Source: an uncultured Methanosarcinales archaeon
Lineage (GTDB): Archaea > Nanobdellota > Nanobdellia > Woesearchaeales > JAGVZT01
DNA length: 64,000 nucleotides
Direction of reading: 5' to 3'
Assembly: GCA_964419615.1 (NCBI GenBank)
Contig: CAYQPU010000003.1
Span: 2,707-66,706, forward strand
In this document: positions 39,149 through 39,383 of the stretch, in pieces
How positions within the stretch are numbered: the first letter of the stretch is position 1
Layout of the letters: every line of letters starts with the position of its first letter
Notes under the pieces: generated by a model
Told to the model about the DNA's origin: nothing
Database searches by the model: none
What the model saw: only the letters and a program-made list of their open reading frames with translations
Position numbers and translations under genes: made by a program

Positions 39149-39383
39149 TGCGGGGGACGGGACTTTCAAGGACCTTTTAATAGCTTGAGTCATGGTCATC
39201 TTGTTTTTTGATACACCATGTTATGGGACTTTAAGTCCCATTGTTTTGGTCAAGCTTTTACCCTTGGGTAAAAGGTTGATTTGAACCCGCGTAGCCACTA
39301 AGGCCTACGGCCCTCGACCGTAGTCGTTTTATCTCAAACCAAGATTTTTTTGGTTTGAATTGACCAGGCTCCGACACCCCCGC
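39149..39383 (-). tRNA. Class II tRNA (Leu-GAG or Ser; anticodon ambiguous) with putative non-canonical introns in the D-loop (~31 nt) and at T-loop position 59/60 (~117 nt)
   Basis: Minus strand: GCGGGGG-UG-UCG-GAGCCUGGUCAA (class II 5' end) ... CGA, anticodon hairpin CUACGG-UCGAGGG-CCGUAG, variable arm GCCUUAGUGGCUAC, GCGGG-UUCAAAU then ~117-nt insert, CCCGU-CCCCCGC-A; 7-bp acceptor helix perfect; GC-rich island in AT-rich DNA. Confidence 0.5.

What the first reader, a model, noticed from the sequence alone, without database searches (positions are those of the whole stretch)
39149..39383. Class II tRNA apparently carrying two non-canonical introns (D-loop and T-loop 59/60), next to rpl18e
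A 235-nt GC-rich island on the minus strand has a perfect 7-bp acceptor helix (GCGGGGG/CCCCCGC) and a class II-type 5' end (GAGCCUGGUCAA). It also has an anticodon-like hairpin with loop UCGAGGG, a stem-loop variable arm and a canonical GCGGG-UUCAAAU T-arm start. The T-stem 3' strand (CCCGU) only appears ~117 nt later, and the D-loop contains a 9-bp hairpin insert. Introns at 59/60 and in the D-loop are typical of multi-intron tRNAs in some archaeal lineages. The window also encodes the splicing endonuclease (29349-30008) with an unusual Lys-rich N-terminal extension. Anticodon assignment (GAG-Leu versus CGA-Ser) is ambiguous because position 33 would be C in the simplest fold.
Basis: partly seen in the sequence, partly recalled or inferred. 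Interest (0 to 1): 0.6.

Follow-up and report, generated by a model that had tools for sequence, protein, structure and literature searches.

The report
Two-intron leucine tRNA gene, Woesearchaeota
The 235-base stretch is a real leucine tRNA gene of a tiny DPANN archaeon, interrupted by two introns at unusual places (D-loop and T-loop), so standard tRNA finders miss it; this kind of gene is already known and is common at this locus in its relatives.

Summary
Confirmed. Window 39149-39383 (minus strand) is a tRNA-Leu(GAG) gene split into three exons (24, 48 and 14 nt). A 32-nt intron sits in the D-loop, after GGUCAA (about position 21/22). A 117-nt intron sits in the T-loop at 59/60. ARAGORN and Rfam find nothing in the raw sequence. 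The in-silico spliced 86-nt product is called tRNA-Leu(GAG).

Intronless orthologues from four other species, used as queries, place the gene ends and both gaps at these coordinates. The host is a Woesearchaeon (DPANN). In 70 of 80 related genomes a tRNA-Leu lies at the same spot, between rpoD and rpl18e, with 0, 1, 2 or 3 introns in 22, 33, 13 and 2 of them.

The closest relative has introns at the same two sites. Its exons are 83/86 identical, intron 1 carries two compensatory changes in its helix, and intron 2 is unrelated in sequence. Both introns fold into relaxed bulge-helix-bulge motifs (HBh' and hBH), the substrate of the splicing endonuclease encoded at 29349-30008.

The anticodon ambiguity is settled as Leu(GAG); C33 is real and recurs in three other lineages. 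Disrupted tRNA genes in DPANN were already reported (Kaneta et al. 2018), so this is a new member of a known kind. One question stays open: the endonuclease core shows no insertion against the M. jannaschii enzyme.

The parts
39360..39383 (-). Exon 1 (24 nt): acceptor 5' strand GCGGGGG, U8 G9, D-stem 5' strand UCG, and the D-loop up to GGUCAA (about A21)
   Evidence: It is 24/24 identical to the closest relative L007.
39328..39359 (-). Intron 1 (32 nt, D-loop, about 21/22; the junction could slide up to 2 nt toward the 5' side within the A run). Relaxed HBh' motif: central helix G19-U20-C20a with GAU, a 3-nt 5' bulge AA|U, and a 9-bp intron helix UCAAACCAA/UUGGUUUGA.
   Evidence: The local minimum-energy fold shows this structure, ensemble frequency 0.56. 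The rule-based junction scores 3/4 central pairs and 9 h' pairs. L007 has a 30-nt homologue with two compensatory changes, C-G to U-A and C-G to A-U. The same site is occupied in 17 other loci.
39280..39327 (-). Exon 2 (48 nt): A22, D-stem 3' strand CGA, anticodon arm UACGG-UCGAGGG-CCGUA (anticodon GAG at 39313-39315, C33 at 39316), variable arm GCC-UUAGU-GGC, T-stem 5' strand GCGGG, and T-loop UUCAAA
   Evidence: It is 46/48 identical to L007.
39163..39279 (-). Intron 2 (117 nt, T-loop 59/60; the junction is sequence-ambiguous up to 61/62). Relaxed hBH motif: T-stem, a 3-nt bulge AG|U, then T-loop UUCA(A) paired with UGAA (UUGAA) at the intron 3' end. The 5' site lies in a 4x2 internal loop, followed by a 6-bp helix and a three-hairpin body.
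   Evidence: The unconstrained fold of T arm plus intron has MFE -43.2 kcal/mol, z=-5.24, and gives exactly this structure. Central helix is 4/4 with a 5-bp T stem. Eleven other loci have an intron at 59/60, all with xGAA-NN| at the 3' end. There is no similarity to the 69-nt intron of L007 beyond chance, and no other copy in the window or the loci.
39149..39162 (-). Exon 3 (14 nt): U60, T-stem 3' strand CCCGU, acceptor 3' strand CCCCCGC, discriminator A73. CCA is not encoded. The rpl18e ATG follows 9 nt downstream.
   Evidence: It is 13/14 identical to L007.
29349..30008 (-). endA, tRNA-splicing endonuclease (219 aa): the enzyme inferred to cut the four splice sites. It has a catalytic core like the M. 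jannaschii alpha subunit plus a Lys-rich N-terminal tail of about 45 aa.
   Evidence: Pfam PF02778 plus PF01974. Best PDB matches are the N. equitans alpha subunit 3IEY_A (2.9e-34) and M. jannaschii 1A79 (3.2e-30). Y155, H165 and K195/K196 are invariant in 12 Woesearchaeota homologues.
44805..45117 (-). RNase P RNA, inferred to mature the 5' end of the pre-tRNA
   Evidence: Rfam RF00373, 101.5 bits, E=3.2e-27.

Best explanation
Window 39149-39383 (minus strand) is the single-copy-type tRNA-Leu(GAG) gene that Woesearchaeota carry between rpoD and rpl18e. Here it is interrupted by two protein-spliced (BHB-type) introns.

Shown: the exon and intron layout, its orthology, and the folds. The 235-nt precursor can form the cloverleaf helices with two protrusions. 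In the D-loop, G19-U20-C20a pair with the intron's GAU. This leaves a 3-nt bulge AA|U next to a 9-bp intron hairpin, an HBh' motif. In the T-arm, the T-stem is followed on its 3' side by a 3-nt bulge AG|U and a helix between T-loop U54-A57(A58) and the intron's 3'-terminal (U)UGAA, an hBH motif.

Inferred: the splicing endonuclease encoded at 29349-30008 cuts after the second nucleotide of each bulge or loop, 4 bp apart across the central helix, and releases introns of 32 and 117 nt. The three exons (24, 48 and 14 nt) stay held together by the acceptor, D and T helices. An RtcB-type ligase, not seen in the window, joins them. RNase P and RNase Z trim the ends, and CCA is added after transcription. 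The product is an 86-nt class II tRNA-Leu reading CUC/CUU, with an unusual C at position 33.
For: 1. The spliced product is called tRNA-Leu(GAG) by ARAGORN. The unspliced gene is invisible to ARAGORN and Rfam.
2. The mapping is not circular: intronless orthologues from four species map the gene to 39383-39149 with gaps of 30-32 and 117 nt, scoring 92-126 against a null maximum of 32.
3. Synteny: 70 of 80 Woesearchaeota loci have an alignable tRNA-Leu right after rpoD. After in-silico splicing, 68 of the 70 are called tRNA-Leu(GAG).
4. The cloverleaf on 46 distinct sequences, including the window product, has 100% paired cells, 16 of 23 pairs with compensatory change, and 0 of 500 shuffles reaching it.
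5. Closest relative L007 (80% RpoD identity) has introns at the same two sites. Exons are 83/86 identical. Intron 1 is 25/32 identical, with both helix differences compensatory. Intron 2 is no more similar than shuffled sequence, 53 against 50.7 +/- 2.3 identical columns.
6. The splice-motif rule (a 4-nt central helix ending 2 nt before each cut) is met at 3-4 of 4 pairs in all 18 D-loop introns and all 12 T-loop introns, including one A57-U to G57-C compensatory case in L090. The chance expectation is 1.5 of 4.
7. Unconstrained local folds give the motifs. The cloverleaf-constrained fold of the whole precursor is within 2.3 kcal/mol of the MFE.
8. An endonuclease with an intact Tyr-His-Lys triad is encoded 9 kb away.
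9. The sequence is identical in five independent assemblies.
Against: - There is no RNA evidence: splicing, the exact junctions and the mature tRNA are all inferred.
- Neither motif is a strict hBHBh'. The D-loop intron's 3' site sits in a 4x7 internal loop and its central helix has only 3 pairs (G18 lies opposite A). The T-loop intron's 5' site sits in a 4x2 internal loop.
- According to the literature, relaxed motifs need a broad-specificity endonuclease carrying a specificity loop (PMC5829648). The endonuclease here shows no insertion against the strict-specificity M. jannaschii enzyme.
- C33 replaces the near-universal U33.
- Only 64 kb of the genome is visible, so a second, intact tRNA-Leu(GAG) gene elsewhere cannot be ruled out.
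Confidence: 0.9

Rival explanations
1. It is a dead tRNA-Leu pseudogene disrupted by two insertions. The cell uses another tRNA-Leu(GAG) or a wobble-reading isoacceptor encoded elsewhere.
For: Gene finders and Rfam do not recognise it. C33 is abnormal. Neither splice motif is canonical. Only 64 kb of the genome is visible.
Against: - Exons are 96.5% identical to L007, while intron 2 has been completely replaced.
- Both differences in the intron 1 helix are compensatory.
- The insertions sit exactly where 17 and 11 other lineages have insertions obeying the same central-helix rule.
- All 23 cloverleaf pairs are intact.
- All six members of the closest clade (window, L007, L087-L090) keep a 59/60 intron of 13-117 nt.
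Confidence: 0.05
2. The insertions are not removed. The RNA is an expanded tRNA-like or other structured non-coding RNA that functions with the extra domains in place.
For: Intron 2 is strongly structured, z=-5.24. There is no RNA data.
Against: - The extra domains have no sequence conservation, not even with the closest relative.
- Their length ranges from 12 to 117 nt, and they are absent from 22 orthologues.
- An insert at 59/60 would break the T-loop/D-loop tertiary core.
- No Rfam family matches.
Confidence: 0.02
3. It is tRNA-Ser(CGA), read with U33 one position earlier, rather than tRNA-Leu(GAG).
For: The loop UCGAGGG contains U-CGA, and the tRNA is class II, as Ser is.
Against: - That register needs a 9-nt loop or a broken anticodon stem.
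- 43 of 46 distinct orthologues have UUGAGGG in the same column.
- The discriminator is A73, and the D-loop AGCCUGGUCAAA and the variable arm match the Leu orthologues.
- ARAGORN calls it Leu(GAG).
Confidence: 0.01

Closest known systems
Multiple-intron tRNA genes of Thermoproteales and other Crenarchaeota (Marck & Grosjean 2003; Sugahara et al. 2007, 2008; reviewed in PMC4090602)
   Same: Protein-spliced introns at non-canonical positions, including 20/21-22/23 and 59/60, which the review lists. Two or three introns per gene, relaxed hBH/HBh' motifs, and genes missed by ordinary tRNA finders.
   Different: The host is a mesophilic, AT-rich DPANN Woesearchaeon, not a TACK hyperthermophile. The endonuclease core shows no insertion against M. 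jannaschii over residues 55-219, so there is no sign of a Crenarchaea-specific loop. There is no evidence of intron transposition: no second copy of either intron appears in the window or in 90 loci.
Disrupted tRNA genes of DPANN archaea (N. equitans; ARMAN-1/-2; the survey in Kaneta et al. 2018, PMC5829648, which included Woesearchaeota archaeon RBG_13_36_6)
   Same: The same superphylum. That paper already links DPANN alpha4-type endonucleases to more non-canonical and multiple introns, and says undetected disrupted tRNA genes remain. The window's endonuclease is 81% identical to that of RBG_13_36_6 (P0129).
   Different: The paper attributes broad specificity to an 'L3' insertion. The window enzyme lacks the Lys-rich insertion of N. 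equitans alpha (6 residues shorter) and of ARMAN-2 (5 shorter), and has no gap against M. jannaschii at that site. The per-locus picture seen here, one orthologous tRNA-Leu with introns at four or more positions across 70 species, is not in the passages of the two papers I read.
M. kandleri pre-tRNA-Glu(UUC), with a D-loop HBh' intron plus a canonical intron (PMC5829648)
   Same: A relaxed HBh' intron in the D-loop around position 21, combined with a second intron in one gene. An endonuclease without a specificity loop still has to remove it.
   Different: There the second intron is the canonical 37/38 one, and the enzyme is an (alpha-beta)2 heterotetramer. Here the second intron is at 59/60 and the subunit composition is unknown.

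Membership tests
Archaeal class II tRNA-Leu | Cloverleaf with a 7-bp acceptor, 3-bp D stem, 5-bp anticodon stem, stem-loop variable arm and 5-bp T stem | tested here: met
   After removal of gene nt 25-56 and 105-221, all 23 pairs form. The same structure is 100% paired across 46 orthologues.
Archaeal class II tRNA-Leu | NAG anticodon, discriminator A73, G18G19 and a T-loop UUCRAAU | tested here: met
   Anticodon GAG, A73 at 39149, GG in AGCCUGGUCAA, and T-loop UUCAAAU restored by splicing.
Archaeal class II tRNA-Leu | U33 preceding the anticodon | tested here: not met
   C33 in all six contigs of this species. C33 also occurs in L042, L081 and L088. All other orthologues have U.
Archaeal class II tRNA-Leu | Orthology by position (between rpoD and rpl18e) | tested here: met
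   70 of 80 Woesearchaeota loci carry a tRNA-Leu at this spot.
Rfam tRNA (RF00005) / ARAGORN tRNA | The contiguous gene scores above threshold | tested here: not met
   No hit on the genomic sequence even at E<=10 or with intron options. This is expected for introns outside the anticodon loop. The spliced sequence is recognised.
Canonical hBHBh' splicing motif | Two 3-nt bulges on opposite strands separated by a 4-bp helix, each flanked by an outer helix | tested here: not met
   Each intron has only one clean 3-nt bulge. Intron 1 has the 5' bulge AA|U, but its 3' site is in a 4x7 loop and its central helix has 3 bp. Intron 2 has the 3' bulge AG|U, but its 5' site is in a 4x2 loop.
Relaxed BHB motifs (HBh' / hBH / BHL) | A central helix plus one intact bulge-helix, with the second cut at the symmetric distance in a loop | tested here: met
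   Intron 1 is HBh' and intron 2 is hBH. The same geometry holds in all 18 D-loop and all 12 T-loop introns of the orthologue set.
Relaxed BHB motifs (HBh' / hBH / BHL) | Actual cleavage by the endonuclease and ligation of the exons | not testable with these tools
   There are no RNA data or enzyme assays.
Archaeal splicing endonuclease EndA, catalytic alpha unit | N- and C-terminal EndA domains with the Tyr-His-Lys catalytic triad | tested here: met
   PF02778 (E=2.1e-13) and PF01974 (E=2.6e-28). Y155, H165 and K195/196 align with the triad region of 1A79 and are invariant in 12 homologues.
Broad-specificity EndA (loops L1/CSL, L2/ASL, L3/Nanoarchaea-ARMAN-2) | A lineage-specific, Lys-bearing insertion near the active site | tested here: not met
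   Residues 55-219 align to M. jannaschii 9-171 with only two 1-residue gaps. The N. equitans and ARMAN-2 insertions before the catalytic His are absent. A direct alignment to the CSL of crenarchaeal alpha subunits was not displayed.
(alpha-beta)2 EndA | A separate structural beta subunit | not testable with these tools
   There is no second EndA paralogue in the 64-kb window. The rest of the genome is not available.

The most novel reading that the evidence does not exclude
Woesearchaeota remove relaxed hBH, HBh' and BHL introns, which are frequent in this tRNA-Leu across the phylum, with an endonuclease whose core matches the strict-specificity M. jannaschii alpha4 enzyme and lacks all three described specificity loops. 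On this reading the conserved Lys-rich N-terminal tail (MP[RK]KK..., 15-95 aa) supplies the extra RNA contacts. That would be a fourth, independent route to broad substrate specificity.
Probability: 0.25. Interest if true: 0.6.

Novelty: new member of a known kind. Interest (0 to 1): 0.4.

Why it matters
1. Annotation. This is the only tRNA gene in the 64-kb window, and ARAGORN and Rfam both miss it. In one relative the rpl18e gene call runs into the unrecognised tRNA (L089). This adds a concrete case to the published point that incomplete tRNA sets predicted for DPANN genomes may reflect undetected disrupted genes (PMC5829648).

2. Evolution. A single orthologous locus, fixed by flanking genes, shows intron presence or absence at four or more positions across 70 species, including 12-13-nt mini-introns. 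That makes it a clean natural series for studying gain, loss and turnover of archaeal tRNA introns.

3. Enzymology. The pairing of relaxed motifs with a loop-less endonuclease makes the question of what confers broad specificity directly testable with one substrate and one enzyme from the same contig.

Tried and rejected
- ARAGORN on the window and the region, with default settings, with introns and with 0-300-nt introns: no gene. Lowering the threshold gave only spurious calls: Trp(CCA) with a 153-nt 'intron' in the region at 80%, and Phe(AAA) at 5412 and Ile(UAU) at 24274 in the window at 90%.
- Rfam at gathering and at E<=10: no tRNA hit, only a 5-bit tmRNA fragment over the T-arm.
- Ser(CGA) reading: rejected on orthologue loops and identity elements.
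- Intron 2 as a C/D-box sRNA host, by eye: AAGAUGAC is a poor C box and there is no CUGA D box. No Rfam hit. Dropped.
- Introns as mobile or transposed elements: blastn of both introns against the window and all loci found no other copy apart from the same species.
- Group I or II self-splicing: 32 and 117 nt are far too short, and there is no Rfam intron hit.
- A second endonuclease subunit in the window: none.
- Other hidden tRNAs in the window, via a T-arm motif scan: only this locus has a tRNA-like context.
- The supplement of PMC5829648, for the definition of the L3 loop in Woesearchaeota: not held.
- Ten of the 80 loci gave no credible spliced alignment: no gene, a contig end, or a more disrupted gene. 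I did not resolve them.

Full report
**What is at the coordinates**

On the minus strand, 39383 to 39149 reads as follows:
- GCGGGGG-UG-UCG-G-AGCCUGGUCAA;
- a 32-nt insert containing a 9-bp hairpin;
- A-CGA-C-UACGG-UCGAGGG-CCGUA-G-GCC-UUAGU-GGC-UAC-GCGGG-UUCAAA;
- a 117-nt insert;
- U-CCCGU-CCCCCGC-A.

The element lies in the conserved archaeal cluster rps13-rps4-rps11-rpoD-[element]-rpl18e-rpl13-rps9-rpoN-leuS, all on the same strand. It starts 24 nt after the rpoD stop codon and ends 9 nt before the rpl18e ATG.

ARAGORN finds no tRNA anywhere in the 64-kb window. Rfam finds only SRP RNA and RNase P RNA. Even at E<=10 there is no tRNA hit over the element.

**Test by splicing**

I applied the geometry of the archaeal bulge-helix-bulge motif: each cut lies 2 nt after a 4-nt central helix strand. 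The register was checked against the canonical 37/38 introns of the orthologue set.

This predicts intron 1 as gene nt 25-56 (window 39359-39328) and intron 2 as gene nt 105-221 (window 39279-39163). Removing them gives an 86-nt sequence that ARAGORN calls tRNA-Leu(GAG) with a standard class II cloverleaf.

The result does not depend on my choice of junctions. Intronless tRNA-Leu(GAG) genes from four other species, used as queries in a spliced aligner, all place the gene ends at 39383 and 39149. Three of them open a 32-nt gap in the D-loop and a 117-nt gap at 39279-39163. The most distant query (L084) opens 30- and 117-nt gaps shifted by a few nucleotides. Scores were 92-126, against a null of 9.7 +/- 7.2 (maximum 32) on 149 random pieces of the window.

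**Who it belongs to, and what relatives have at this spot**

RpoD and the endonuclease have their best hits in Candidatus Woesearchaeota, in the DPANN superphylum. The same 235 nt are 100% identical in five independent JGI and ENA metagenome contigs.

A scan of species-representative genomes returned 80 Woesearchaeota loci. In 70 of them a tRNA-Leu lies directly downstream of rpoD. It carries no intron in 22 loci, one in 33, two in 13 and three in 2. After in-silico splicing, 68 of the 70 are called tRNA-Leu(GAG).

Intron positions fall into recurrent classes:
- after GGUCAA in the D-loop: 17 loci plus the window;
- the canonical 37/38 site: about 28 loci;
- 59/60 in the T-loop: 11 loci plus the window;
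- a few others, in the 5' part of the D-loop and around 29-33.

An alignment of 46 distinct spliced or intronless sequences, including the window product, has no indels except two D-loop columns. On the cloverleaf it shows 100% standard pairs, 16 of 23 pairs with changes on both sides, and no shuffle or slid control coming close.

**The closest relatives**

L007 (Red Sea Suakin Deep MAG, 80% RpoD identity) has introns at the same two sites, of 30 and 69 nt. Compared with the window:
- Exons are 83/86 identical.
- Intron 1 is homologous at 25/32 columns. Of its differences, two are compensatory pairs in the hairpin (C-G to U-A and C-G to A-U), one is a 2-nt loop deletion, and one lies at the unpaired fourth position of the central helix.
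- Intron 2 is no more similar than shuffled sequence (53 against 50.7 +/- 2.3 identical columns).

Four further relatives at 65-69% RpoD identity (L087-L090) all carry a 59/60 intron, of 35, 13, 13 and 31 nt. Two of them also carry the D-loop intron, of 12 and 23 nt.

Conserved exons, conserved insertion sites, a conserved intron helix and free turnover of the remaining intron sequence are what is expected for spliced introns. They are not what is expected for a decaying pseudogene.

**The splice motifs**

Unconstrained folding of the D arm plus intron 1 gives this layout, with ensemble frequency 0.56:
- the D stem;
- a 7-nt loop;
- the helix GUC/GAU;
- a 3-nt bulge AAU;
- a 9-bp helix;
- a 4-nt stretch AAAA.

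Unconstrained folding of the T arm plus intron 2 gives this layout, with z=-5.24 and 0 of 200 shuffles as stable:
- the T stem stacked on UUCAA/UUGAA;
- a clean 3-nt bulge AGU on the 3' strand;
- a 4x2 internal loop at the 5' site;
- a 6-bp helix;
- a three-hairpin body.

Enforcing the cloverleaf helices on the whole precursor reproduces both motifs at -88.7 kcal/mol, against an MFE of -91.0.

So each intron has one strict bulge-helix and one relaxed site: HBh' for the D-loop intron and hBH for the T-loop intron. Across the orthologue set the central-helix rule holds as follows:
- At 4/4 pairs in 15 and at 3/4 in 3 of the 18 D-loop introns. The intron strand reads G-R-Y-N opposite G18 G19 U20 C20a.
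- At 4/4 pairs in 8 and at 3/4 in 4 of the 12 T-loop introns. The intron strand reads N-GAA, followed by 2 nt, then the cut, then N60 and the T stem. L090 shows a compensatory G57-C pair where the others have A57-U.

The chance expectation is 1.5 of 4 pairs.

Junctions are sequence-ambiguous by up to 2 nt: 20a/20b to 21/22 for intron 1, and 59/60 to 61/62 for intron 2. The motif rule selects 21/22 and 59/60. Both positions, or their immediate neighbours, are on the published list of archaeal non-canonical intron sites (PMC4090602).

**The enzyme**

The ORF at 29349-30008 has both EndA domains. Its best matches among solved structures are the N. equitans catalytic alpha subunit (3IEY_A, 2.9e-34) and the M. 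jannaschii alpha4 enzyme (1A79, 3.2e-30).

Residues 55-219 align to M. jannaschii 9-171 with two single-residue gaps. The Lys-rich insertion that N. equitans and ARMAN-2 carry before the catalytic His is absent.

These include the enzyme of RBG_13_36_6. There is no second EndA paralogue in the window.

Kaneta et al. 2018 (PMC5829648) surveyed that same Woesearchaeota genome. They report that DPANN alpha4-type enzymes with an 'L3' insertion go together with more disrupted tRNA genes, and that undetected disrupted genes probably remain. My alignments do not show such an insertion here.

How this enzyme handles relaxed motifs is therefore an open, testable point. A partner subunit elsewhere in the genome and a role for the Lys-rich tail are the two obvious options. 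Neither could be tested.

**Anticodon and C33**

The loop is UCGAGGG. 43 of the 46 distinct orthologues have UUGAGGG. C33 occurs in the window (all six contigs), L042 and L081, and also in L088. The window's closest relative L007 has U33, so the change has arisen several times. The identity is Leu(GAG), and the Ser(CGA) reading is rejected. I have no evidence on whether C33 is tolerated or edited.

**Verdict**

The element is an intron-containing tRNA-Leu(GAG) gene of a known kind, a multi-intron archaeal tRNA with relaxed BHB motifs. It sits in a lineage where such genes have been noted but little described. Nothing here is categorically new. The value lies in:
- a missed essential gene;
- a rich comparative series at one locus;
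- a mismatch between the substrate type and the expected features of the enzyme.

What is inferred rather than shown: actual cleavage and ligation, the exact junctions, the ligase, the oligomeric state of the endonuclease, and the functionality of C33.

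Noticed in passing
window 39316 (minus strand; position 33 of the tRNA); also L042, L081, L088: The anticodon loop has C33 instead of the near-universal U33 (UCGAGGG). The same change occurs in three other Woesearchaeota tRNA-Leu(GAG) orthologues, but not in the closest relative L007. 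It has therefore arisen repeatedly, and only as U to C.
   Followed up: partly
window 29349-30008 (minus strand): The EndA core aligns to the M. jannaschii alpha4 enzyme with no insertion and lacks the N. equitans/ARMAN-2 Lys-rich loop. Yet this lineage is full of relaxed-motif introns. A Lys/Glu-rich N-terminal tail of variable length (about 15-95 aa, often starting MP[RK]KK) is present in all 12 homologues aligned.
   Followed up: partly
L009:3242-3412 and L082 (downstream of rpoD): Two orthologues carry three introns in the same tRNA-Leu(GAG). In L009 they are 37 nt in the 5' part of the D-loop, 15 nt at 37/38 and 33 nt at 59/60. Other loci have inserts around positions 29-33 that I did not model.
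   Followed up: partly
L087:2034-2165, L088:2002-2124, L089:1992-2090: Mini-introns of only 12-13 nt occur at the D-loop and 59/60 sites. They have a central helix but no outer intron helix (bulge-helix-loop type). They suggest that long introns such as the window's 117-nt one shrink or grow freely.
   Followed up: partly
L089:2045-2455 and L087:2257-2538: Automatic gene calls for rpl18e vary (136 aa and 93 aa, against 116 aa in the window). In L089 the call starts inside the unrecognised tRNA gene. This is an annotation error caused by the missed tRNA.
   Followed up: no
window 34827-37631 (minus strand): Leucyl-tRNA synthetase is the last gene of the same-strand cluster, about 1.5 kb downstream of the tRNA-Leu gene. 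Enzyme and substrate genes are neighbours here and in the identical contigs L001, L002 and L004.
   Followed up: no
window 44805-45117 (minus strand) and 30278-30551 (plus strand): Archaeal RNase P RNA (101.5 bits) and SRP RNA (133.9 bits) are both in the window. The RNase P RNA alignment shows several lineage-specific insertions and deletions relative to the Rfam model. The SRP RNA lies 270 nt from the start of endA.
   Followed up: no
window 57134-57211 (minus strand) and 51772-51882 (plus strand): Sub-threshold matches to C/D-box snoRNA families (29.6 bits, E=0.37; and 23.1 bits, E=1.7). They could be archaeal C/D sRNAs or chance matches.
   Followed up: no
L008, L010, L012, L017 and other loci (record titles): Many MAGs whose rpoD locus is clearly of the Woesearchaeota type are titled 'uncultured Methanosarcinales archaeon', and one 'Candidatus Aminicenantes bacterium'. 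These are probably mislabelled bins or contaminating contigs.
   Followed up: no
window 39163-39185 (3' end of intron 2): An A/T-rich box (CUAUUAAAAGG) sits about 40 nt upstream of the rpl18e ATG, inside the intron. L007 has AAUAAAUA at a similar place. It could be a TATA-like promoter for rpl18e, or just AT-rich sequence.
   Followed up: no
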